This document shows positions 434 through 54,356 of a stretch of DNA of 64,000 bases, in pieces; the stretch's first letter is position 1; every line of letters starts with the position of its first letter. The position numbers and the translations under genes are program-made. The DNA is from Spizellomyces punctatus DAOM BR117 (lineage: Eukaryota). The DNA lies in NCBI GenBank assembly GCA_000182565.2, contig KQ257450.1; one strand, 5' to 3'. The notes below the pieces were generated by a model that saw nothing but the letters and a program-made list of their open reading frames with translations, did no database searches and had not been told where the DNA came from.

Positions 434-910
434 NNNNNNNNNNNNNNNNNNNNNNNNNNNNNNNNNNNNNNNNNNNNNNNNNNNNNNNNNNNNNNNNNNN
501 NNNNNNNNNNNNNNNNNNNNNNNNNNNNNNNNNNNNNNNNNNNNNNNNNNNNNNNNNNNNNNNNNNNNNNNNNNNNNNNNNNNNNNNNNNNNNNNNNNNN
601 NNNNNNNNNNNNNNNNNNNNNNNNNNNNNNNNNNNNNNNNNNNNNNNNNNNNNNNNNNNNNNNNNNNNNNNNNNNNNNNNNNNNNNNNNNNNNNNNNNNN
701 NNNNNNNNNNNNNNNNNNNNNNNNNNNNNNNNNNNNNNNNNNNNNNNNNNNNNNNNNNNNNNNNNNNNNNNNNNNNNNNNNNNNNNNNNNNNNNNNNNNN
801 NNNNNNNNNNNNNNNNNNNNNNNNNNNNNNNNNNNNNNNNNNNNNNNNNNNNNNNNNNNNNNNNNNNNNNNNNNNNNNNNNNNNNNNNNNNNNNNNNNNN
901 NNNNNNNNNN
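434..910. other. Assembly gap (N run)
   Basis: Run of N. Confidence 1.
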
Positions 911-7383: not shown

Positions 7384-7483
7384 NNNNNNNNNNNNNNNNN
7401 NNNNNNNNNNNNNNNNNNNNNNNNNNNNNNNNNNNNNNNNNNNNNNNNNNNNNNNNNNNNNNNNNNNNNNNNNNNNNNNNNNN
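7384..7483. other. Assembly gap (N run)
   Basis: 100 N preceded by a poly-C run. Confidence 1.
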
Positions 7484-8389: not shown

Positions 8390-9213
8390 NNNNNNNNNNN
8401 NNNNNNNNNNNNNNNNNNNNNNNNNNNNNNNNNNNNNNNNNNNNNNNNNNNNNNNNNNNNNNNNNNNNNNNNNNNNNNNNNNNNNNNNNNNNNNNNNNNN
8501 NNNNNNNNNNNNNNNNNNNNNNNNNNNNNNNNNNNNNNNNNNNNNNNNNNNNNNNNNNNNNNNNNNNNNNNNNNNNNNNNNNNNNNNNNNNNNNNNNNNN
8601 NNNNNNNNNNNNNNNNNNNNNNNNNNNNNNNNNNNNNNNNNNNNNNNNNNNNNNNNNNNNNNNNNNNNNNNNNNNNNNNNNNNNNNNNNNNNNNNNNNNN
8701 NNNNNNNNNNNNNNNNNNNNNNNNNNNNNNNNNNNNNNNNNNNNNNNNNNNNNNNNNNNNNNNNNNNNNNNNNNNNNNNNNNNNNNNNNNNNNNNNNNNN
8801 NNNNNNNNNNNNNNNNNNNNNNNNNNNNNNNNNNNNNNNNNNNNNNNNNNNNNNNNNNNNNNNNNNNNNNNNNNNNNNNNNNNNNNNNNNNNNNNNNNNN
8901 NNNNNNNNNNNNNNNNNNNNNNNNNNNNNNNNNNNNNNNNNNNNNNNNNNNNNNNNNNNNNNNNNNNNNNNNNNNNNNNNNNNNNNNNNNNNNNNNNNNN
9001 NNNNNNNNNNNNNNNNNNNNNNNNNNNNNNNNNNNNNNNNNNNNNNNNNNNNNNNNNNNNNNNNNNNNNNNNNNNNNNNNNNNNNNNNNNNNNNNNNNNN
9101 NNNNNNNNNNNNNNNNNNNNNNNNNNNNNNNNNNNNNNNNNNNNNNNNNNNNNNNNNNNNNNNNNNNNNNNNNNNNNNNNNNNNNNNNNNNNNNNNNNNN
9201 NNNNNNNNNNNNN
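8390..9213. other. Assembly gap (N run)
   Basis: Run of N followed by a poly-C run. Confidence 1.
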
Positions 9214-30212: not shown

Positions 30213-33052
30213 CTACCCACCAACACCCACAAACTCCCCATACAAATGCCCAACAACAATCGGAACACAAGAGACAACCAACGGCCCCAAAACCAATCCC
30301 AAGGGAAACCCAAACTGGTAATACCCAAGCCAAAACGCTAAACCCGTCAACAACAAATTCGGACCTGTACTCGACACATGATGAGAATCAACAAGATGCC
30401 CCATCTCTTCCTCCAATATCGCAGGATCAATCACCCACGCTACAATCAAGTGGACCATCAAGAGTCCCCCACCTTCCACTACACCCCACCACCCACTCAT
30501 ACGCGTCCATAGGCGGATCGCGGCTGGAATGGCGAAATAGTACGAGGGGACAATGGGGATGAGTGTTGCGAGGCCTGTAATGAATGTAGGGATATAAACG
30601 AGGTCGAGGTGGGTGATGGAGTGGGTGAGGTAGGTAGAGAGCATATGGTAGAGCGTGAGTTTGAGGTTCACGATCAGAGCGGATTGAACGGCATGTTCAA
30701 GAGCGTGCCTGTTTTTTGATTTCCTTCATCAGTATTTTCTTTTTCCAAATAATGTTTGTCAAAATACAAAACATACCGCAACTTTTGTTTCGGATCCACC
30801 AACCCAATCACCCGCCCCGCATGTCCAACCACCCCAACATGCCCCGCAACAAAAGCATACAAACTCGCCAAAAACAAAATCCACTGAAAGAGGACATCAA
30901 ATGCATATGTGACGCCCACAACAAAGAGGACCACCAATGCTACCGCCGCTCCACCCAGGAATTGAGCGGTACGCGCCGCAAATGTCCCCAAAGATGCCGG
31001 CATAGCATTTGCATTCGACAATGTATTCGCATCTTTATCTAATAGTCGGAGAACTGTGTCGAGGAGGTTGAGACCGTGGGATCGGAGTTCGTCGGTTGCG
31101 GGGGGAAGCTGGTCCGCCAAGGACGTCAAATTAAAATTTCCGCGGAAAACTTGGAGTAAAAGGTCCCCCGTCTGTGGTAACATGTCAAAAATACCACGTT
31201 CGGCAGGTGTCGTCCTCGTGGGTGTCGGTCTAGGTTTTTTTTTTCCATCTACAACAGCGTCCGTATCCTTCCTCACCAATGCCAAGTAGTCTATACTCTT
31301 GTGGATCATATCGAATAACTCTTGGGCGGTTAGGTCAGATGGGTTGGCGCTGCTCTTATCGCGTTCCAAATAGGCCACGGTTCGAGCTTCGAGATCAGAG
31401 ACGAAGCGGAGGGCTTGCTCCCGTAGTTCGTCGTTGGCGAGAACAGAGCGGTTGACGAAGCGGATCGTGTCGTCTATGATGAGACCTGTTTCCTGTCCGA
31501 CCTGGAAAGAAAGGAATTTTAACACCTTCATCATAGAAGAACGAGTGCAATAAAATGCACGTACCTTGAACAAGAGAAACCCACCCCCACCGAATGCAGC
31601 CACCAGCGTTGAAATAATCAACAGTCCAGATAATAACCCATTCAAGTTCCTTCGTAACCACCGCTTGCTTCCCACCCGACATTTTTGATAACACCATCCC
31701 AACCCCCACTGTATGCTCCCAATAGCCTGACGGCACAATCCCGTTTGTACAATCCCCGTCGTATCCCGAACCTTTTTCTGCTCTCGGTCATTCACAACGA
31801 CATACCGACGATAAGCCCCTAACCCAACATGCCACACAAAATAACAAACACCCCCACACACAACACCCATCCCAATCGCCGAAAACGCTTTCAAACTCGC
31901 CTCCCATCTCTCAACAACAAATCGAAATAAAGCGTACCGAACCACCCATAAAAACAAAACTTGGAGGTACTGCCCCTTGGGCGCTGTCGTGAACCCCGGT
32001 GTACGAATCCCGAGTGCAGCTGGTAATGACTGTGAAAAAGATCGTTTCCGGGATACCGCTCTCGTACTATCGGGTCTACGAAACGAGACGGGGTGTCGGA
32101 GGGTGGCATGTGGTCGTTGCAAGGGTACATCCTCATCGCTCGCTTCCGATTCCAAGAGAATCATACTGGAGAGTTCGCGTGAGAATTTTTGGAGAGGTTC
32201 CAAAATGGGTTCGTCGCCGGATGTCGTTGACGATGGTGAGGTATCTACCCCATTCCATCGGGTATGGATATCACTTTCGGAAACAGATCGAAAACGCATT
32301 CCTTTCCGTCCTTTTCGACGGCGCACGGTCGTGTGTTTTCGACCCCTTAAAGACTCGTGCTCGGTTTTGGAAAGCGAGGGTGAAGGTTCTGTAGGCTTGG
32401 GCTTTTCTCTTTGCTTACGATTATGTGGTGTCGATATACGGTGGATGAGACGGATACAAACGGTAAACATGGCGGAAAGGAGGTGCCAGAATATACCTAG
32501 AATCATCTAACCCAAAGTCCATGAGCCTTTTTCTGTTACATATATAACTTGTGTGGACGTTACCTTGGTTGGCACTCCTACCATCCACCAAACCACATTC
32601 CTCCATCCCAACCCAGAGCCCGTCGTCCCACCCTCTTGATCATCCTTTAAAAACACTTGCATCCGTTCTGTTAGCGAGACTTTGATCCCATGCAACGGCA
32701 CCGAAAGAACAGCAGCATAAAAAAACGGATTAAAGTACGGTCGAATCAACACTATAAGAAACACAACATTAACCTTAAATAATGATGGTTCCTTCCGACT
32801 CGCCCACAAAACTTACCATAATTCAAATAAACAAGTCCCAAAGCCCCCAACCCCAAGCACCACACCGTAAACCCAATCACCGCTTCCCTCGTCCTTGTCA
32901 TCACCCATTGCCGACCCTCTCTGTCATCTACATCCAAAAAACCCCCAGTCAACACTTGAATGCACAAAACTCGACGACATCGTTTCCATACCATGCGTGA
33001 CGCCACCGACGAGGGACTTTTCGGAATTGGGAACGGGATAGTGAGGAGGCAT
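30213..33052 (-). CDS. TMEM245-like polytopic membrane protein; multi-exon
   Basis: N-terminal LIRPYFNPFFYAAVLSVPLH; C-terminal VYIPT...LATLIP...AIPAA...LTGLAFWLGYYQFG..GLVLGPL resembles TMEM245. Confidence 0.7.
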
Positions 33053-44100: not shown

Positions 44101-46062
44101 ATTTTTGCGTTCAACGCATGGTCCCAAATACGCCGTATAAATTTAACATTGTAAATATGAGTAAACCAAATAGTCAGTTCAATCAAGGTAGGGATCGACC
44201 AAATCTAGACTATAGTCACTTACACCAACATAAAGAAACTTAACCGTTTGTCTTTCCCAACTTTAGGAATGCAACCTGTCATGTTCTCCCGTGAGGAAGG
44301 TTGCTGGAGACGTGTCGGGGACGCTATCTATTATTACAAGTGAGGAACTCTTCAATTACGCACCCATCACTGACCAGGTTGCTAAACTATTCTTATTCTT
44401 AGAAACCATTATGCATTTCCCACACAATACGAGTCAGAATATACATTCGCTACCCTGACATTCACCATAACGTTCTCATATGCAGGGGACAGCTGTTATT
44501 TTGCATATCACTATCCATACACTTATTCAGACCTTCAGGTAATTAACTTTTTCACTACAAGAGGCATTGTGAAGCGGAGCTGATTTGGTTGTGCGCAGCG
44601 GTCCCTGTTCCATCTTCAGCTCTCCTCGACCTTTGGCGAGCGATGCAGGAGACAAACCTTGTGCAGAACATTGGGTGGGAATGAGTGTCCTCTGCTTACT
44701 GTTACAGATTTTAGCCCTGGTATGTTTTCATTTGGTTGCTTTGGAGCATCATGGGCGTCCCTCATTCATTTTCATGTAGCTTCCACGGCAACAAACCCAA
44801 TATCAGAGCGAGTATATGTTCTCCTCAGTGCACGGGTAAGACGCAATGCGTGTTCGTATACGTCAATTCAACTGTAGTCCAACCTGATCATCTTCAGGTC
44901 CACCCCGGCGAATCCAACTCCTCCCATATAATGCACGGCTTACTAAACTACCTGCTGTCCGATGCGGAAACGGCGATCGACTTGCGAAAACGCTGCGTGT
45001 TCAAGATTGTTCCCATGCTGAATCCAGATGGGGTTGTCAATGGAAGGTAGGCCACAATATATTTTGACCAAAAGAATATGCTGTTTTTGAGATAATGATG
45101 GTATCCTTTTCTTCAATAGTCACCGATGCTCGCTTGCGGGAGTAGATCTGAATCGCCAATGGAAACGTCCAGACCGGAGGAGGGCGCCAACTATCTGGTG
45201 GGTAAAAAGGCTGTGGAAGTTCTTGGTAGATGAAGGAAAGCGGGTTTTGGTAAGTGCAAGCGTTTTCTCGATTCGTCAATCCAAGTTCCAGGATTGGAGG
45301 ACTGGAAGATTGGAAGATTGGAAGAATGGAGTGCACTATGGCCGTCATTCTTATCAAAGCTCTCCTACTCAACAGCTTACGTGCGACTTTCACGGTCACT
45401 CGCGGCGCAAAAATATGTTTATCTTTGGCTGCGAAAATACTCCAGGCAGCGACGTGGAAAATCTGGAAAAGGTACAATAGAGCGTAATCCGAGTCATCTG
45501 TAAATATGCGAGTACGCTTATACCTTTCCCGCGGGCGCCCGCAATAGACCTTCCCAACTCTGCTCTCGACGTTATCACCAACGTTTGATATGTCACTCAC
45601 TCGCTTTGATGTGACACCGTCCAAGGAAACCACAGCTCGAGTGGTTCTGTGGCGCGAAATGGGCATCTTAAACTCGTTCACATTGGAGAGTAGTTATTGC
45701 GGGGGGGATTTCGGCGAGAAAAAGGTAAATCAACAGATCCACTGAGTTACCCCTCAATTTAGCATCACCTTTTCTCATGGTGCTTTTTGCAGGGACTCCA
45801 ATTTCAACCCGCCGATCTGCGTCAAGCCGGAATAGATTTCTGTCGAGCATTACGGGCTTTTCTTGATATTCCTCCTTGGAACTCTAGCTCTCCGTTCCCG
45901 ACCGCAGCGCCTTTGGTACCTTCTGTCCGCTCTGCATCGGCTAGTGTAGTTAAAACTTCTGTCGTTGTAGAGTCTGAAGTAGGGCAGGTGGAAGCTGAGG
46001 TCCACCTAGAGGTTTCCGCGGAGATATCCGTGGGAGAAGAACAAGGAAATACGCTTGCATAA
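41195..46062 (+). CDS. Cytosolic carboxypeptidase (M14, CCP1/AGTPBP1-like tubulin deglutamylase) with N-terminal helical region; many exons
   Basis: [51 protein letters not shown]...[18 protein letters not shown]. Start uncertain (40955 or 41195/41242). Confidence 0.92.
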
Positions 46063-46433
46063 TCTACTCCGTCTTTGACTGCAGCAATTTAAAGGAATTG
46101 TAAATAGTTGATCTTTGTCGATATAATAAAGCTGAAATATTTAACGACCTAACCGTCCATGGCGCGCTCTAATATATTACAGGTCTTAACAAAAGCCAAT
46201 CTATCTACATAAAAGTCGAACGACCAATCCTATTCTGCCAAAGAGAGGGTACCTCGCTTAAGCTGCTGCTTCAATTCCCATACGTCCGCACGATGTTTGG
46301 GTGGGGATGATGAGGTATTCATAAGAAAATCGAGATAATTGATGGCAGAGGAATCCGTTGGCCATGGAGATACTGTTGCATCAGACAGTTAATTGAATTC
46401 ACTACTGGTTAAACATGCGTGACTATTATCATA

Positions 46434-46931
46434 CTAACACTTTCGAGACTGCCTCGATTTGATCTTGACTGTTGCGTCCAGGTTTTGGCTGCTATCTTCT
46501 TGGTCCAATTTGAACCGAACGTGTTTCTGCAGGTTCTGAGGCCGTGAGTGTGTTCCGGGACGTTGTAAGATAGACGGTGGGGATGTTGAATTGGGACACA
46601 ACGATGGAGGCGGTAGGGTCATCGCTCCAAATGTAGGGTTTGGAGAACTTGATTCTGTGACATCGCTCACATTACTGCTATCACTGCTACTAGATTCAGA
46701 ATCCAATAGCCTAAACTTGGCAGGTCCCACTCGTGACAAGACGACAACGTTCTCTGATCGAACATGAATAGGCAGGAATTCGCTCTGATCCTCCAGATCC
46801 ACATCATCTGTGGGCACTTTGATTCTTTCCCAGCTTTCCCATAGCGAGGTCGCAGACCCATGAGGCGGCAATGGAGGCAGAGCTGGCAGAGAAACTCGAG
46901 AGTCCTCCTCTTGTTCATTCGATGAGAGCAT
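46434..46931 (-). CDS. Hypothetical low-complexity protein (probably continues in a further exon)
   Basis: S/P/acidic ORF with a KHVRF (RVxF-like) motif; no recognisable domain. Confidence 0.35.
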   Translation of the reverse strand: MLSSNEQEEDSRVSLPALPPLPPHGSATSLWESWERIKVPTDDVDLEDQSEFLPIHVRSENVVVLSRVGPAKFRLLDSESSSSDSSNVSDVTESSSPNPTFGAMTLPPPSLCPNSTSPPSILQRPGTHSRPQNLQKHVRFKLDQEDSSQNLDATVKIKSRQSRKC

Positions 46932-47617
46932 AATTTGTTGCGAAGACTTTGGATTATTCGAGCCGACAAACGACGACCCCCACCACCAGAAACCACCTAC
47001 ACAGTCGGAAAACAGCATAATGAGGTCAAGAATTTAGAATGAAATTGGGGGGAAGATGAGGAAAGACGACGGCGGAAATGCCAAGGTGGAAGGCGGCTAA
47101 ATTGGAGGGAAGGAAAGCAACCTGTCGAAAATCCATGCAGCGGGCTCTTTTAAGGTGCCCTCCACAAGTCTCCGAATGCAGTACACATGTGAAAATTGCG
47201 ATACTAGATATTATTTCTTTATCCTCCCCTATCTGATAGATGTCCTTTGGGGGGTTATTTTCCATCACAATCCTTTAAACCTTGCTCTCGTGCTCTCCAC
47301 AAAACTGGCTGCGCACGGGCTTTTCCCCCCTACCCCTCTATGGCCGCGTGCAACTAGGCGTGTGCAGGGCGATAACTCATTCACGTGACTATAAGTTGAT
47401 GAACAGCTCCCCATGCACAGACTACAGCATTAAAGTGCTTTCAACTTTATAAAATGATGTGCAATTCCACGTGCGTAAGATGGGCATGCGATAAACTCAA
47501 AGGCTGGAAGGTTCTCCCGGCAAGAGCTCGAGCATTCCTCCATGGGTTTGACTCCTACATATCCTTGCCCGCGAGCAGCGGTCCACAAGCATGTGCCTTG
47601 GACAAATTTAATTTCCA

Positions 47618-47647
47618 TAGTACGGAGCCGGTGGGTATTGGCACTAG
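47618..47647 (+). repeat. Left terminal inverted repeat (including terminal TA)
   Basis: TAGTACGGAGCCGGTGGGTATTGGCACTAG is the reverse complement of 49825-49854 with one mismatch. Confidence 0.97.
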
Positions 47648-47807
47648 TACATAGATTCCAATCAATTTAATCATAATTTTACTCGATTTAGACTTATGGT
47701 TCAATGCACAAAAGATGCACCACCCATTGAAAAACGGGTCCAATATGTGCGGCATCTATGAGGATTGAGGAATTTTCGCAGTTGCGGCGAGTGAGTTGCC
47801 ACATTTC

Positions 47808-47815
47808 TATATAAA
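47808..47815 (+). promoter_or_regulatory. TATA box of the Fanzor gene
   Basis: TATATAAA ending 66 nt upstream of the ATG, followed by a pyrimidine-rich leader. Confidence 0.6.
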
Positions 47816-47881
47816 CCCCTCCACTATCGTTCTCTCCCTGCCCATTTTCCCAGGCTTTCATCTTTTCCCACAGATATCATC

Positions 47882-49765
47882 ATGCCACCAAAGAAGCAAA
47901 GGCTCGAAAAACTCGACAAACCCACCTTAGTGACCTTACACACCTGCAACAAGACGTCCTTTGCAAAAGCTTTCCTGCCAAACGAGATCTACCACCAACG
48001 GCTTCTAGATTACATCGCCATCATTCATGAACTTGCTGACCACGCTTCCCACGCTCTCAAATTCTACATCCTATCTGCACCATCCTTTCCCATGGTAGAT
48101 CAAGATACAATCGAAGCGATTCTCTATCTTCTCAACAAGGGGGAGGCTTGGCATCCAAGAAAGGAAGCAAAGAAGGCATGGCGGGATTGTTTGCTGCCAT
48201 ATGTTCAACGGTACTGCCAAATCGTCGGCTTTGTTCACCCCAATCTACGAGGCGAGCAGCAATCAGTCAATTACCTGACAGCGAGTATGATGACGAACCT
48301 GAAAGTCAACATTCAAGAACATTTCATGACGATGCTGCTCCGCTATATCAATCTACGGCTCGACGTGAGGGGACGGAAAGGGCCTCCAAAGAGTGAAGCA
48401 CGGAAAGCTTTCTTTGCTCGGCTACGCTACTTGAAGTCAATTTTCCTTTTCGATATCGTGCCCGAATTGCTGGATGACTTGACTGCTGAAGAGAGTGAAC
48501 TTCTAGAAGAGATTTGGTCACTCGATCGGCCTTTTCTTGTTGACAATCCACTCGCCTACGCAGTTGTCGTCAATCCAATGTCCTTTTTCCCTGCGTACTG
48601 TCGGTTGTCAAGCCTATATGAAAAGCATGGATTTCGACAGTTCAGCGCGATACCTCTGCGCCGCTCTCTCATCCAAAGCCATGTGCGGATCGACACCATC
48701 ATTCTCTACCAGCATATCCTTTGCATCGCACGAAGAGAAGCGGAAACTGTTGAAAAGGTCGATTTATGGTTGCGCGTCTGTAATCTGCGGAACAAGGCTT
48801 TTAGATCTCGTCGTGGAATGTGTTTTGAAGGCTCGATCACGACGGACGGTACCTCGGTGTCAGTTTACTTGAAACATCCTGAAGCCGACAAGTATGGAAA
48901 GCGTGGCGGTGGGAAAAAGTCGGCAAAGACCTTAGAAGCTGAGGTGAAGGCAGTATATGTGGAGAACAACTTGCCTGCTTGTCGAGCAGCAGAGAACTTT
49001 GTCGTTATCGACCCAAACAAGCGCGATCTTCTCTACTGCCAAGACAACAAGGGCACCATCTTCCGTTACACCGCCAATCAACGCTGCAAGGAGACTGGAA
49101 GCCGTCGATTTGCAAAAGAGCGGCAGCGGATGAAAGCTGGCGGTATTGACCTCATAGAATCACGTATCCCAAGCCACAAGACGATGAACCTCATGGACTT
49201 TACTCGCTACCTTCTTGTTCGCCGCGCAGATTCGGATCGTCGCAAGGAATTCTACTCCCACCCTGCCCACACGCGATGGAAATGGCACGCATTCATAAAC
49301 CGTCAGAAGAGCGAATCAGACCTCATATCCAACATGCACAACAAGTTTGGGAACTTTACCATTGTGATGGGAGATTGGAGCGATGCCGGTCGAACTGCGA
49401 GATTTCAGACCTCATCAAAGACGAAAGGCTGGCGCACCCTCTTTAAGCGCAACAGGATCAACTGCTTCCTTCTCGACGAGTACAAGACCTCATCTGTTTG
49501 CCCTTGCTGTTCCTCTGACGTTGAAAAAGGCTTCCAAACACGACCTCATTCAAGACCTTATCGACGACGAGAAGGCAAGATTGAAAAAGTCCACGGATTG
49601 CTGGGTTGTACCAACCCTAACTGTTTGCAGCAAGCCTGGACATCGGGAATGCGCTACTGGAATCGAGATACGCTGTCAACCTGCAACATGCTGATGATCG
49701 TGCAATCAATGTTGGATGGACATGGTAGACCAGAGGTGTTCAGCAGGAGCCGTAGCGTAGCGTAG
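47882..49765 (+). CDS. Fz1: Fanzor1 RNA-guided DNA endonuclease (eukaryotic TnpB/Cas12 homolog), 627 aa
   Basis: N-terminal NLS-like PPKKQR; ITTDGTSVSV; RuvC-I VVIDPNKRD (D377); VMGDWS; RuvC-II LLDEYKTS (E533); Zn-finger CPCC...CTNPNC; RuvC-III WNRD (D596). From memory, closely resembles S. punctatus SpuFz1. Confidence 0.96.
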   Translation: MPPKKQRLEKLDKPTLVTLHTCNKTSFAKAFLPNEIYHQRLLDYIAIIHELADHASHALKFYILSAPSFPMVDQDTIEAILYLLNKGEAWHPRKEAKKAWRDCLLPYVQRYCQIVGFVHPNLRGEQQSVNYLTASMMTNLKVNIQEHFMTMLLRYINLRLDVRGRKGPPKSEARKAFFARLRYLKSIFLFDIVPELLDDLTAEESELLEEIWSLDRPFLVDNPLAYAVVVNPMSFFPAYCRLSSLYEKHGFRQFSAIPLRRSLIQSHVRIDTIILYQHILCIARREAETVEKVDLWLRVCNLRNKAFRSRRGMCFEGSITTDGTSVSVYLKHPEADKYGKRGGGKKSAKTLEAEVKAVYVENNLPACRAAENFVVIDPNKRDLLYCQDNKGTIFRYTANQRCKETGSRRFAKERQRMKAGGIDLIESRIPSHKTMNLMDFTRYLLVRRADSDRRKEFYSHPAHTRWKWHAFINRQKSESDLISNMHNKFGNFTIVMGDWSDAGRTARFQTSSKTKGWRTLFKRNRINCFLLDEYKTSSVCPCCSSDVEKGFQTRPHSRPYRRREGKIEKVHGLLGCTNPNCLQQAWTSGMRYWNRDTLSTCNMLMIVQSMLDGHGRPEVFSRSRSVA

Positions 49766-49779
49766 ATTGGTTAGATTAG

Positions 49780-49870
49780 GTTTTCCGAACCGGTTGTCGC
49801 GCGGTTCAATCCCTGGTGCGGGTGCTAGTGCCAATACCCACCGGCTCCGCACTATCAATATAAAGGTAAT
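49780..49870 (+). ncRNA. omegaRNA: ~75-nt scaffold (49780-49854) plus ~15-nt guide from the flank
   Basis: GTTTTCCGAACCGGTTGTCGCGCGGTTCAATCCCTGGTGCGGGTGCTAGTGCCAATACCCACCGGCTCCGCACTA lies just after the stop codon, ends at the element boundary and has self-complementary stems. It matches the recalled SpuFz1 omegaRNA layout. Confidence 0.88.
49825..49854 (+). repeat. Right terminal inverted repeat (including terminal TA)
   Basis: CTAGTGCCAATACCCACCGGCTCCGCACTA. Confidence 0.97.
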
Positions 49871-49895
49871 TAGAATTTACTATCTACAGAAATAT

Positions 49896-51421
49896 CTACT
49901 TTTTTTCATGGTCCCCCTCGAGGATCCGGCGTTTTCTACGGGGATACCGATCAAGTACGGTAACGCCCGCTGTCTTTTTTGGGCGCCTCGGCTGTGGGGC
50001 CTCCTCACGTTTACCCTCTAGCACAATATTCGACTTGTTCTCTACAGATGATACCAATCGATGTTCAAATTGGCGCAGGTCGGCGGTAAATAGCACCTGC
50101 GTGCGCTGATGAGTACATGACAGCAAAGGTTCCATTTTCAAAGTCACTTACTGAATGCGCCCATCCAGCGTGTGTCCCAAAGATCGTTCGAAAGCGATCC
50201 CCGATCGCTAAGTAGTTCTTTTGCGTGAGAGTTTTTGAAGCGAGGCCGGACAACTTGTAGTCTCTTTTCGCAATCTAGTGCGCAACTGTAATGTTTAGCT
50301 TCTGTCTCAAACTAATATCGACCCAAGATCACATTGCATACCTGCCATACATGCGTATCAACGGGTATCGCTCCTGGCTTATCCATGCTATACGTATCTA
50401 TCAACAAATGCAGACTACGAAACAAATATTCAAACCTCCGCATATACCTCATTAAACAGACACAGTCTGCAACCTTTGGTCCCACTAAATAAAATTTCAA
50501 ATTCAAGAATAGTTATTGTCCATCATCTACCTGTAAGCTCGACTCGACTACTGCTTAGCTTACCACCAGCCAGCTTCAACAACTCATCCCTGCATTCTTC
50601 ATATGGCAAATTTCTCAATCCTCTTAACCAGGTTTCGTCATGGTGCTCCATGATGTACCTCGCCGTTTGCGATATGTATTTTGCACGGTAGCCGAAACCA
50701 AGCTGCCGCAACTCGTTTTCCACATTTTCTTGTGCAAGACGCGCCACCGTCGGAAAGCTATAGAAGGGCTTCGATATCTCATCAACAGTACCGATCTCGG
50801 TTCCATAATGTTGACATAGTTTGCTAACCTAAAGATGGCACATAAATGACGGGAAGCTTTATGAAAGGGAAAACTGGCTATTGTAATACCATTGTAGTGA
50901 TTCGCTGAATGTTGTTGTTTGAGGTACAAATGAACGTGAACAAATTTTCTACCGGATCTTGCCTTCAAGCGAAAGCATGTCAAAATATATATATATATTT
51001 GTGGCGAGAATCGGATGTCGAGGTCTGCATACCTTAATATCCGGATGCCCATAAACCGTCCCGCCTTTTTCTCAAAGTTGGCATCCGTCCGCCATTGTTT
51101 ATACAGTTCCCCAAGATCTACATCAAGCTGAAAATAGTCTCTCAATAACTCCGCAACATCGCCGACATTATCGCCCGGTGTGCGATACAATATGTCGTCA
51201 TCTACCTTGTCTCACTGGTCAATACATGCAGAAACTGCCTGCCTATTTCTCGAAACGACAATATGCTCACCAGTCTGACGCAACGTTATTATGCGCCCCG
51301 ACAATACACTCGTCCACTGATTATCTCCTGTGTTCACCCATCGGAAGCTTTGCCCACAGTTGAGGGTCGTGTCAAGACGGAGCTCTTCTGGTTTTACAGA
51401 AAGGCAATGCCAGGTGGTCAT
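49896..51421 (-). CDS. OGG1: 8-oxoguanine DNA glycosylase/AP lyase; multi-exon
   Basis: [37 protein letters not shown], Hh[50 protein letters not shown]. Confidence 0.96.
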
Positions 51422-51898
51422 GGGGCGTACCGACAGACTGCGAGCAAGCCACGGCTTCAGACAATAAAGTGTAGGGCGAAAATGAGCCACGGTAGGAAGT
51501 CACACTGATACAATCCTGAACGAAAATGGTGGATCGCTGGAAGTCATCGCTTGAAGCCCTGCATCTGTTGGTAGCACGTGATGCTTCAATTTATCTTTTT
51601 CCGGTTAAATTGCGTTCGGACCTCCTCCGACCACCGATTTTCCCAAGCTCTCAACGCAGCGACCACGACGGGCCGAGACAACGAGAAAGGAAGGAAAAGC
51701 AGCACTGGATCGAGATAGATAGCCAAATCTCTGGTGCATGCGATTTTTAGAATCTTCCAAAGGGTACGTGTGTTCTGAATGACACGGTCATGTTCAACAT
51801 AAAACTGAGGAACTTTTTTCGATATCGGGCTTTTGGCTGGAACAGGCTTTTGGTACCCTTTCTTGAGCCTTTTCGTTCGCCAATAGTCTGACCTGACC

Positions 51899-54356
51899 AT
51901 GCCAAATCCACGCGATATCGGGTTCAAACAACTGGTCCTTGACTTTTCGGCAAAACCAGGGAAGATGCCGCCTTCCTCTGAGAACGAAAAGAAGCAAGAA
52001 AAGAAGCAATCTCCACTTTCATCTTCGTCTTCCCTGGTGGACAGGACGGCTGCCTCCCCAACGTCTCGCTTTTCTCCATATGTGTCAAGGATACCCCCAA
52101 CTATCTCTGGAGGTGCATTGGAGCACCGCGGACGAAATGCTTCTCTGGGCTTGAAGAAAAGCGCGAGTGGGTCAAAAATGGTCATTGATTTAACGGGCGA
52201 TGAAAATCGGCATACAGATCCTCTGCTTTCTGTGCAGTACAGCAGCAACATTCCAGGAGAGGGTGCTGGGACTCTCGTTAATTTAACGACTGAAGGACTG
52301 ACAGCTTCCGTCATTCCATCAAAGCCAGATTTGGCTGCATACAAATATGCACCCTCAAACGCTACATCTATGTCCTCCGGGTGGTCGCAATCAACTTCAA
52401 CCACCGTAGCTAGCACGACAATGACCCGTCTTATTGGTGCGAGCACTGCTGCCTCCTCGTCATCGAGATTCAAGCACCGCGAAGTAGAGCTCTCAAAGCA
52501 TTTTTTAAAGAATACATTGGGTCAGGATGGTAGGACCAGATTAAACGTGGCATCAACAGCAAAGAGCACGATCCAGTTGTCAGAGGAGCAGGAAAATGTG
52601 GCGAAGCTGGTAGTTGATGGCCAAGAGAGTATATTCTTTACAGGGAGTGCCGGTAAGTGACTTAATATAGTTAAACGTTTTGAAAGATGTTCAACCTTCA
52701 AGGGCAATGACACAATTGATGATGCAGGAACGGGGAAGAGTGTACTGCTTCGAGAATTGATAAAACGTCTGCAGAGTAAATACGCAAAGGAGGAAATAGC
52801 AATTACAGGTGACAGTAACAGGTACACCAGTTCTCGCATTCTCTTGCTGACCCAATTGTAGCCTCTACAGGGATCGCTGCTTGCAACATTGGTGGCATTA
52901 CCTTGCATTCCTTTTCTGGTTGTGGTATAGCAAAAGGTATACACGCACTGTCGTCACTGGATGAATCAAACCACCCATTCTCTTCTCTGCATCCAGAGAC
53001 GGCAGCAGTGCTCGCACAACGTGTCATAGCCAATAATCGGTCCAGTACACGGTGGCGAAGCACCAAGGTTCTAATAATCGATGAGGGTGAGGACTAGAAA
53101 CATATTTGGTTTTATTCGTGATGAAGCGTGTTCTTTGTCTCGAACTAATGATTATGATGTAGTATCGATGGTTGAAGGAGACTTTTTTGATAAACTGGAA
53201 TACGTTGCCCGCTCAGTACGTCGCAGTCAGAAGCCATTTGGAGGAGTCCAGGTAGATAACATGGCCACTCAGCTACAACTCATCAACGACGGTGGCTTTG
53301 CTCACATCGCTTCAGCTTGTTATTTGTGGGGATTTCCTGCAACTTCCTCCAGGTGCGTTGAATGGTTATTGGCGCCCTTGATTTCCATTGCCCAATGCAG
53401 GCAGCACTCATATCCCCACATAGTCTCCAAAAACGCTAGATACGCTTTTGAAGCCACGAGCTGGGGAAACTGCGTAAAGCGAACAATACAGGTAGCTTAA
53501 CTGCGGCAAGAAACTCTATCATCGCAGCTAACATGTAAGGCTCGCTAAATAGCTGAACCACGTGTTTCGGCAACGGGATTCCACCTTTGTCAATCTCTTA
53601 AACGAGATGCGCATCGGAGTAGTATCACCAGAATCAGAAAAGGTGTTGAGGAACCTATCCAGGGAGTTGAGATTTGAAGACGGATTGGAGGCAACCCAAT
53701 TGTAAGTCAATTGGCTGATATGGTGTCCTGTACAAGAAAACATTCTCTGACATGCATCTGCTCGCTTAAGGTTTGCGCTCCGCAATCAAGTCGACCAGGC
53801 GAACGCTGCCCGCTTAGCCAACCTCCCTGGTCAAAGCAAGATATTCAAAGCTCAGGACCATGCCAAAACTGAGGCGGACCGAGCAAAGTTAAAAGATTTC
53901 ATGGCGCCCGCCGTCCTCGAACTCAAACTAGGCGCCCAAGTGATGTTAATCAAAAATCTTGATGAAAAGCTTGTCAATGGATCGTTGGGCCGTGTCGCCT
54001 CGTTTGAAGAGAAGACTGGATATCCGGTGATTGAGTTCATAATCAACGGGAGCCCCAAGTACATGGAGATTACGAATGATGACTGGACGCTGGAGGTACC
54101 GGGTCAAGGTGTTGTGGCATCTCGAAACCAGGTACCCTTAATTTTGGCCTATAGTATGAGTATACATAAGAGTCAAGGGCAAACGCTTGAGAGGGTCAAG
54201 GTGGACTTGGGCAGAGTGTTTGAAAATGGGCAGGCTTATGTTGCCCTTTCGAGGGCTACCAGTTTGGAGGGATTGCAGGTTTTGAACTACTCCCGAAATA
54301 AAGTCAGGGTTGATCGGAGGGTTGTAGAATTTCATAAAAAGTTAGGAACGGTTTAG
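51899..54356 (+). CDS. PIF1: Pif1-family 5'-3' DNA helicase; multi-exon
   Basis: LSEEQ, IFFTGSAG|TGKS, TA|STGIAACNIGGITLHSFSG, LIIDE|VSMV, PFGGVQ, GDFLQLPP, VFRQRD, QVPLILAYSMSIHKSQGQTL, GQAYVALSRA. Confidence 0.97.

What the first reader, a model, noticed from the sequence alone, without database searches (positions are those of the whole stretch)
47612..47625. TAM and target can be read from the junctions: the empty site is CATA + TCAATATAAAGGTAAT
Seen: left junction ...ATTTC-CATA|GTACGG and right junction CCGCAC|TA-TCAATATAAAGG. Removing the element and one TA gives ...TTCCATATCAATATAAAGGTAATTAG, placing CATA directly 5' of the guide-matching sequence. Known: the SpuFz1 TAM is 5'-CATA. Inference: the nuclease cuts only the element-free allele or precise excision site, not the occupied locus. 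That would promote restoration or homing by recombination, with insertion preference matched to the TAM.
Basis: partly seen in the sequence, partly recalled or inferred. Interest (0 to 1): 0.8.

Follow-up and report, generated by a model that had tools for sequence, protein, structure and literature searches.

The report
Fanzor transposon junction encodes its target
The junctions of this fungal jumping gene do show that its RNA-guided nuclease is set up to recognise the same site without the insertion, but this layout is already published for this element family, so the case is correct and ordinary.

Summary
Window 47620-49852 is a full-length SPu-1 (Fanzor1) element. It has 31-nt inverted ends (29 of 31 alike), TA on each side (47618-19, 49853-54) and CA just before the left TA.

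Its single ORF (47882-49765) matches the solved SpuFz1 (8GKH; E=0, about 85% identity). All three RuvC catalytic residues and all six published TAM-contact residues are kept.

Eleven nucleotide identities published for the SpuFz1 omegaRNA fit only one 75-nt frame, 49780-49854, which ends on the right TA. Collapsing the TA duplication puts CATA directly before the guide match. The occupied locus has ACTA there.

The parts are already in print: TA duplication (Bao & Jurka 2013), conserved CA and CATA TAM (Saito 2023), duplication inside the scaffold (Yoon 2023), and the 5' duplication as part of the TAM plus "restorative homing" (2026 review).

Cleavage of the empty site and homing remain untested. 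I found no empty allele and no second copy to tabulate. "Precise excision" is doubtful for an element that duplicates TA.

The parts
47616..47619 (+). CATA at the end of the left flank: CA plus the left TA. It would act as the TAM once the TA duplication is collapsed.
   Evidence: Published TAM 5'-CATA and conserved CA upstream of the 5' repeat: Saito 2023.
47618..47619 (.). Left copy of the putative TA target-site duplication.
   Evidence: TA is the only direct repeat at the junctions. Bao & Jurka 2013 report 'putative TA TSDs' for SPu-1.
47620..47650 (+). Left terminal inverted repeat, 31 nt.
47882..49765 (+). Fanzor1 ORF of 627 aa, a paralog of SpuFz1. RuvC D-E-D is intact and all six TAM-contact residues are kept.
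49780..49854 (+). Predicted 75-nt omegaRNA scaffold with two stems. It ends with the right TA, which pairs into stem 2.
   Evidence: 11 of 11 published nucleotide identities fit only at this offset; fold. Saito sections 7 and 10.
49822..49852 (-). Right terminal inverted repeat, 31 nt. It forms most of scaffold stem 2.
49853..49854 (.). Right copy of the TA duplication, read as scaffold positions 74-75 and not as guide.
   Evidence: Same principle in Yoon 2023 and the 2026 review.
49855..49869 (+). Predicted 15-nt guide and its genomic match (TCAATATAAAGGTAA). It is preceded by ACTA in the occupied locus.
   Evidence: Unique in the window at 0 mismatches. Guide length of 14-15 nt from Saito.
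49870..49875 (.). Zone where SpuFz1-type cuts would fall on an empty site: non-target strand after base 16/17, target strand after base 20/21. Inferred, not observed.
   Evidence: Cut positions from Saito section 8, applied to the coordinates.

Best explanation
Window 47620-49852 is a full-length, apparently intact, non-autonomous SPu-1 transposon, most likely of Spizellomyces punctatus. It carries one gene, a Fanzor1 RNA-guided nuclease paralogous to SpuFz1.

The element inserted at a TA that is now duplicated on both sides, and that TA was preceded by CA. The omegaRNA is read from the 75 bases before and through the right end. Its scaffold includes the right TA, and its 15-nt guide is a copy of the next 15 bases of flank (49855-49869).

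The locus therefore specifies one natural target: the same site without the element, where CATA sits directly 5' of the guide match. At the occupied locus the tetramer is ACTA, so the element should spare itself.

Shown here: the anatomy, the scaffold/guide boundary, and conservation of the catalytic and TAM-reading residues.

Inferred: this paralog uses CATA. It cuts an unoccupied copy of the site (a naive homologue or sister chromatid) 16-21 bp into the right flank. Repair from the occupied copy then copies the element in. I rate homing into never-occupied sites as more likely than restoration after excision.

The confidence given (0.75) is for the anatomy and the predicted target specificity. 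For the homing step alone I would give about 0.4.
For: - Junctions, inverted ends and TA-only direct repeat.
- Protein: 8gkh_P (SpuFz1), E=0, 1222.6 bits over residues 2-623. My hand count on the printed alignment gives about 85% identity.
- Residues kept in the window's protein: D383, E541, D606, and the TAM contacts R96, Q129, Q130, N133, R291, Y345.
- Among the 21 closest relatives: Q129, Q130 and N133 are kept in 18 of the 18 that have the region. R96 is R in 16 of 18 and K in 2. R291 is kept in 20 of 21 and Y345 in 20 of 21.
- Among the 20 more distant relatives: the N133 position is N in 1 of 16 with a residue, and the R291 position is R in 3 of 20. This fits a family-specific TAM.
- Scaffold frame 49780-49854 fits U5, C6, C7, U16, G17, U18, C19, G20, G22, C40 and G70 of the published structure: 11 of 11, against at most 4 of 11 at 20 other offsets (identities from Saito section 10).
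- The minimum-energy fold has two stems, pairs U35-A75 and G36-U74, and leaves bases 76-90 unpaired.
- A contig of another copy, in run X12, stops resembling the window at 49855, within one base of the TA (table 7).
- Literature: SPu-1 with putative TA TSDs. 30-nt repeats with conserved CA upstream, CATA TAM, 75-nt scaffold plus 14-15-nt guide. The legend of Extended Data Fig. 3a draws 'TAM regions' in the locus scheme. TSD folded into Fanzor1 scaffolds. The 5' TSD as part of the TAM, the 3' TSD in the scaffold, and restorative homing.
Against: - One locus only. CA before a TA occurs by chance at 7.9%.
- I could not tabulate other copies. No genome is held, and scans of metagenome, viral and prokaryote contigs gave 0 hits.
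- No empty allele was seen. None of the 15 listed joints in four laid runs spans the element, and 2 more joints were not shown. These are contigs, and X3 proved to be spliced cDNA, so this is no evidence either way.
- The fold is not strongly better than shuffles: z = -1.80, with 10 of 200 shuffles at least as good.
- No Rfam family matches.
I saw no single-base TAM tests for SpuFz1 in the passages read.
- No transposase is known for SPu-1 (Saito discussion), and none appeared among the 10 of 23 long ORFs I scanned in the window.
- A DDE excision makes its own break, so the benefit of a homing nuclease is unclear. The 2026 review raises the same point.
- The host's ploidy and sexual cycle, which decide whether an empty homologue ever meets an occupied one, were not examined.
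Confidence: 0.75

Rival explanations
1. The CA-TA context reflects the target preference of the unknown cut-and-paste transposase, for instance a Tc1-like, roughly palindromic YA-TA-TR preference (recalled, not from a call). The Fanzor TAM merely matches that preference, or evolved to. The nuclease's real role would lie elsewhere, for example acting in trans with the many ghost-locus guides.
For: - The reconstructed target is 5 of 6 palindromic around the TA, with ATA on both sides when the right flank is read in reverse complement.
- Saito's discussion proposes help in trans and notes 134 ghost loci that have an omegaRNA but no protein.
Against: - Saito reports conserved CA only upstream of the 5' repeat and describes the 3' extensions as variable. 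A symmetric transposase preference should also mark the right flank.
- Here the right flank reads TC, not TG.
- This rival does not exclude homing. It only changes why CA is conserved.
Confidence: 0.2
2. Restoration after excision. The transposase excises the element, the donor site reseals to the exact pre-insertion sequence, and Fanzor then cuts it so that repair from a sister copy puts the element back.
For: - This is the demonstrated role of TnpB in IS200/IS605, as summarised in the 2026 review and the Meers et al. preprint abstract.
- The collapsed site would carry CATA plus the target.
Against: - Scarless excision is a property of HUH and serine enzymes.
- This element has inverted ends and a TA duplication and encodes no such enzyme.
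- DDE excision leaves a break. From recalled knowledge of Tc1/mariner, it also leaves a scar keeping both TAs. The tetramer before the target would then end in the right TA preceded by end-derived bases, as in the occupied ACTA.
Confidence: 0.1
3. TA is the outermost part of the inverted repeat and not a duplication, as in Saito's 30-nt repeat definition. The true empty site then lacks it, the tetramer before the target would be TCCA, and the left-end CATA has another meaning.
For: - Saito's '30-nt IR with CA upstream' fits this locus only if the repeat starts at the TA, 47618.
- No empty site has been seen.
Against: - An element with inverted ends and no duplication would be unusual.
- Bao & Jurka read TA as the duplication.
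- The experimentally found TAM is exactly CA plus TA, which this rival would leave as coincidence.
Confidence: 0.05

Closest known systems
SPu-1 elements and SpuFz1 of Spizellomyces punctatus DAOM BR117 (Bao & Jurka 2013, PMC3627910; Saito et al. 2023, PMC10432273; PDB 8GKH)
   Same: About 2.2 kb with a single Fanzor1 ORF, roughly 30-nt inverted ends, TA on both sides and CA before the left TA. The 75-nt scaffold has identical bases at all 11 checkable positions. Catalytic and TAM-contact residues are identical. The nearest named proteins are all from that strain, and two of them share the same longest-contig length as this protein.
   Different: It is a paralog of the crystallised protein, not the same copy: about 85% identity and 627 aa. 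Its guide is its own flank. Nothing else differs.
ISDra2 and other IS200/IS605 TnpB-omegaRNA systems (homing to vacated sites)
   Same: The guide is transcribed across the right end into the flank. The TAM is the motif at the left junction. The occupied locus lacks the TAM next to the target, while the empty site has it.
   Different: No TnpA and no single-strand 'peel and paste' transposition. This element has inverted ends and a 2-bp duplication, the duplication is absorbed into the scaffold, and scarless excision is not expected.
Fanzor1 of Spodoptera frugiperda ascovirus 1a and related insect-virus elements (Yoon et al. 2023, PMC10711439)
   Same: A non-autonomous element with inverted ends that encodes only Fanzor1. 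The RNA extends about 15 nt beyond the duplication, and the duplication is predicted to be part of the scaffold.
   Different: A different duplication (TTAN in a TTTAN site, per the preprint), a three-stem RNA, and a viral host.
IS607 TnpB of ISXfa1 (Yoon et al. 2023)
   Same: A fixed flank nucleotide imposed by the transposase is taken into the RNA scaffold, so the guide stays free. The TAM matches the insertion site and differs from the motif beside the guide in the intact element.
   Different: A serine recombinase system with no inverted ends or duplication, a GGG TAM, and a bacterial host.

Membership tests
SPu-1 / SpuFz1 Fanzor1 element | Fanzor1 nuclease with an intact RuvC D-E-D triad | tested here: met
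   8gkh_P E=0. D383, E541 and D606 equivalents are present.
SPu-1 / SpuFz1 Fanzor1 element | Terminal inverted repeats of about 30-33 nt around a roughly 2.1-kb single-ORF element | tested here: met
   31 nt, or 33 with TA, with 29 of 31 alike. The element is 2233 bp with one long ORF.
SPu-1 / SpuFz1 Fanzor1 element | TA on both sides (putative duplication) and CA upstream of the left one | tested here: met
   This was tested at one locus only; other copies were not retrievable.
SPu-1 / SpuFz1 Fanzor1 element | [quoted passage not shown] | tested here: met
   11 of 11 published base identities fit at offset 0 only. The fold has two stems and a free 3' tail. No Rfam model exists for comparison.
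SPu-1 / SpuFz1 Fanzor1 element | omegaRNA actually expressed with a 3' end 14-15 nt past the scaffold | not testable with these tools
   The laid runs are contigs, which cannot show RNA ends.
SPu-1 / SpuFz1 Fanzor1 element | CATA TAM for this paralog | not testable with these tools
   Indirect support only: 6 of 6 TAM-contact residues are identical to SpuFz1.
IS200/IS605-type OMEGA homing system | HUH TnpA (or serine recombinase) giving scarless excision, with no duplication | tested here: not met
   A single ORF, inverted ends and a TA repeat. It may work like such a system but is not a member.
IS200/IS605-type OMEGA homing system | The empty site carries TAM plus guide match, and the occupied site does not | tested here: met
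   CATA versus ACTA. The empty site is reconstructed, not observed.
Tc1/mariner superfamily (non-autonomous member) | TA duplication | tested here: met
Tc1/mariner superfamily (non-autonomous member) | DD(E/D) transposase, or ends matching an autonomous mariner | tested here: inconclusive
   No transposase lies in the element. None appeared among the 10 of 23 long window ORFs scanned. Saito found none flanked by these repeats in the genome. The ends were not compared with known mariners.

The most novel reading that the evidence does not exclude
CA is conserved only on the left side of a TA-duplicating, presumably DDE-mobilised element. This would be the footprint of Fanzor activity in vivo: insertions persist and spread only where the site happens to read CATA. 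There the new copy's own guide can cut the still-empty homologous site (homologue, or sister chromatid after replication) and copy itself in. That would make SPu-1 a true RNA-guided homing or drive element in a eukaryote. It would act on never-occupied sites rather than on excision scars, and the natural target of every copy could be read from its junctions.
Probability: 0.3. Interest if true: 0.55.

Novelty: already known. Interest (0 to 1): 0.2.

Why it matters
What Fanzors do for their transposons in eukaryotes is still open; Saito's discussion says the biological roles remain unknown. A locus where TAM, guide and self-avoidance can be read base by base gives a concrete substrate set (empty, filled, scarred) for a direct test of homing.

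The layout itself adds nothing to what is in print for this family. The two useful additions are small. First, it reconciles the 2013 'TA duplication' description with the 2023 'CA upstream of a 30-nt repeat' description into one register, checked against the published RNA numbering. Second, typical cut-and-paste scars would not recreate the TAM, which favours homing into naive sites over post-excision restoration.

Tried and rejected
**Other copies for a flank table**
- No whole genome is held.
- The 21-nt repeat core gave 0 hits in metagenome, viral and prokaryote-genome contigs.
- A protein-seeded scan of metagenome contigs gave 23 pattern matches, none confirmed.
- Within the window there is no second copy: repeat patterns at up to 3 mismatches, blastn-short of both ends, tblastn of the protein, and a window-wide inverted-repeat scan. 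In that scan, the pair at 52437/52996 shares only GTGCG with the element's end, lies in a coding region, and was rejected as a ghost element.

**Empty allele**
- Four runs (X3, X10, X11, X12) were laid on 45500-52000 at 85% likeness.
- No listed joint spans the element (15 listed, 2 not shown).
- X3 carries spliced joints, so it is cDNA. X10 covers only part of the right-hand gene. X11 has one 380-nt piece inside the ORF.
- This is no evidence for or against an empty allele.

**Database and literature searches**
- Rfam: no family at E up to 1.
- The local Pfam copy gave no family for the protein, although the protein database lists PF26935.1 for it.
- Earlier findings of this scan: nothing for this genome or this sequence.
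- Literature: 0 papers in the searchable library hold both 'SpuFz1' and 'target site duplication'. The exact SpuFz1-specific sentence may therefore not be in print, but its parts are.

**Closed or missing sources**
- The supplements of Saito et al. (locus lists) are closed, and the image of Extended Data Fig. 3a is not held. Either may already show exactly this.

**Off-target check**
- Four sites in the window match the guide with 3 mismatches. None is preceded by CATA.

Full report
**1. What is in the sequence**

The left flank ends ...AATTTCCATA at 47619 and the element starts GTACGG at 47620. The element ends ...CCGCAC at 49852, followed by TA (49853-54) and then TCAATATAAAGG from 49855.

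The ends form a 31-nt terminal inverted repeat, 47620-47650 and 49822-49852, with 29 of 31 positions alike. The 24-nt core occurs exactly twice in the 64-kb window, once per strand. None of 100 shuffles gave a match.

The only direct repeat across the junctions is TA. Repeat lengths 3 to 8 fail. The one alternative register, shifted by one base to give AT, yields the same reconstructed empty site.

Given a TA, CA precedes it in 7.9% of cases in this window, 496 of 6259. This locus alone is therefore suggestive, not significant.

**2. What the element is**

Between the repeats lies one long ORF, 47882-49765 on the + strand, 627 aa. It matches the solved SpuFz1 fusion protein 8GKH with E=0 and 1222.6 bits over residues 2-623. 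My hand count of the printed alignment gives about 85% identity.

A search of the large protein collection returned 41 relatives. The closest named ones are all 'Spizellomyces punctatus DAOM BR117' proteins at 79-89% identity. Two of them have the same longest-contig length (2,242,449) as the window's own protein. I infer that the window comes from that genome and that this is one of its SPu-1 paralogs. Saito et al. report 19 full-length loci sharing about 82% protein identity (section 7, read whole).

From the numbering in the printed alignment, the catalytic D383, E541 and D606 are present. So are all six residues that Saito et al. describe as reading the CATA TAM or starting unwinding: R96, Q129, Q130, N133, R291 and Y345 (residue roles from passages of section 10).

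| Position | 21 closest relatives | 20 more distant relatives |
|---|---|---|
| Q129, Q130, N133 | kept in 18 of the 18 that have the region | N133 position is N in 1 of 16 with a residue |
| R96 | R in 16 of 18, K in 2 | not counted |
| R291 | kept in 20 of 21 | R in 3 of 20 |
| Y345 | kept in 20 of 21 | not counted |

The pattern fits a TAM specificity that belongs to this family and that this copy shares.

**3. Where the guide starts**

If the guide began at the TA, the tetramer before the target in the empty site would be TCCA, not CATA.

Saito et al. give a 75-nt scaffold plus a 14-15-nt guide. They also name individual scaffold bases: U5, C6, C7, U16, G17, U18, C19, G20, G22, C40 and G70. 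A 75-nt frame at 49780-49854 satisfies 11 of 11 of these. The 20 other offsets from -10 to +10 satisfy at most 4 of 11. That frame ends on the right TA.

The minimum-energy fold of 49780-49869 has two stems, pairs U35-A75 and G36-U74, and leaves bases 76-90 unpaired. The fold energy itself is only modestly better than shuffles (z = -1.80). The numbering carries the weight here, not the fold.

A contig of a different copy, in run X12, stops resembling the window at 49855, within one base of the TA (table 7).

Saito's '30-nt IR with CA upstream' fits this locus only if that repeat starts at the TA (47618). This reconciles it with Bao & Jurka's description of SPu-1 as flanked by 'putative TA target site duplications' (passages).

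**4. What follows**

Collapsing the TA duplication joins the left flank ending in CATA (47616-47619) directly to 49855. That gives a TAM plus a perfect 15-nt match. In the occupied locus the tetramer before the same 15 bases is ACTA.

Using the published cut positions (non-target strand after base 16/17, target strand after base 20/21), a break would fall at about 49870-49875 in the right flank.

The guide has no second exact match in the window. Its four 3-mismatch matches are not preceded by CATA.

All of this is geometry. I found no data on cleavage of native sites.

**5. How it most likely works, and the weak point**

The best reading is the published OMEGA logic applied to an element that duplicates TA. 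The RNA-protein complex ignores its own locus and can cut the same site when it is unoccupied. Repair from the occupied copy then copies the element in.

I think that is the weaker half, for three reasons:
- The element has inverted ends and a duplication, and encodes no HUH or serine enzyme.
- The 2026 review points out that DDE excision itself makes the break, and that scarless excision belongs to IS605 and IS607 (section 6.2, read whole).
- From recalled knowledge of Tc1/mariner, scars keep both TAs plus end-derived bases. That would again place a non-CATA tetramer before the target.

Homing into never-occupied copies (a homologue, or a sister chromatid after a new insertion) fits better. 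It also matches Saito's 'sister chromosome' remark.

A further open point is why CA is conserved. It could reflect transposase preference: the site here is 5 of 6 palindromic around TA. Or it could reflect Fanzor-dependent retention. Saito mentions conservation only on the left and variable 3' extensions, which favours retention. I could not check the right flanks of other copies.

**6. Surroundings**

The element sits in an intergenic gap. Spliced transcript contigs of run X3 end at 47320 on the left (a minus-strand gene whose first long ORF is 46434-47018) and start at 49928 on the right (a minus-strand gene with CT..AC introns). About 370 bp of original spacer remain.

No transposase was seen among the 10 of 23 long ORFs of the window that I scanned. 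These gave RING finger, PNP oxidase, SH3 and TANGO2 hits, and six gave nothing. The ORFs overlapping N runs and the element's own ORF were left out.

**7. What is already known**

Every component is in print:
- TA duplication and inverted ends of SPu-1 (Bao & Jurka 2013; passages).
- Conserved CA upstream of the 5' repeat in Fz and ghost loci, the CATA TAM, and the 75-nt scaffold plus 14-15-nt guide (Saito 2023; sections 7 and 11 read whole, other passages).
- A figure legend that marks 'TAM regions' in the locus scheme (the figure itself is not held).
- The duplication being absorbed into Fanzor1 scaffolds (Yoon 2023; passages).
- The TAM aligning with the insertion site (Jiang 2023 preprint; passages).
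- The explicit statements that the 5' duplication is read as part of the TAM, that the 3' duplication sits in the scaffold, and that OMEGA systems do 'transposon restorative homing' (2026 review).

A search for papers holding both 'SpuFz1' and 'target site duplication' found none. The SpuFz1-specific sentence may therefore be unwritten, but it is a direct combination of published facts. Saito's supplementary locus tables, which I could not open, may show it outright.

Two earlier notes of this scan, on giant-virus Fanzor elements in other genomes, reached the same 'guide starts after the duplication' reading. I did not test them.

**8. Verdict**

Novelty: already known. Interest is low (0.2), apart from offering a clean substrate set for the still-missing test of Fanzor homing.

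Noticed in passing
window 45500-52000 (run X3): Run X3 is labelled 'DNA?' but its contigs carry short GT..AG and CT..AC joints of 55-97 nt, for example 45722>45791, 46372>46439 and 51201>51271. It is therefore spliced cDNA. It gives intron positions for the neighbouring genes, but no DNA-level evidence on excision.
   Followed up: partly
window 47320-49928: The element lies in an intergenic gap. On one side is the 5' end of a minus-strand gene, whose transcript contig ends at 47320. On the other is the 3' end of another minus-strand gene, whose contig starts at 49928. The guide target lies about 60 bp beyond that 3' end.
   Followed up: partly
window 47617-47619 and 49853-49855: The flanks are symmetric one base beyond the TA: ATA on the left and TAT on the right. 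The reconstructed target is therefore 5 of 6 palindromic. This may hint at a palindromic transposase target preference.
   Followed up: no
window 30674-32506 (-): A 610-aa stop-free frame with no Pfam family at E up to 0.001. It is the longest open frame in the window after the Fanzor gene, and its nature is unknown.
   Followed up: no
window 434-910, 7384-7483, 8390-9213: Three runs of N, 1401 bases in all. Several long 'ORFs' listed there are artefacts of the Ns.
   Followed up: no
window 47882-49765: The local Pfam copy returns no family for this Fanzor, while the protein collection lists a precomputed PF26935.1 for it and for all 40 relatives. The local library appears to lack that newer model.
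   Followed up: no
proteins P0022-P0041: In relatives at 30-55% identity, including ones named from Phlyctochytrium arcticum and Clydaea vesicula, the catalytic residues are kept. The positions equivalent to N133, R291 and Y345 vary widely. This suggests different TAMs in other chytrid Fanzor1 lineages.
   Followed up: partly
window 49855 (run X12, table 7): A contig from a differently labelled organism matches the right end up to 49855 and then continues unlike the window for 255 letters. This is a second copy or relative whose right boundary falls at the same place.
   Followed up: no
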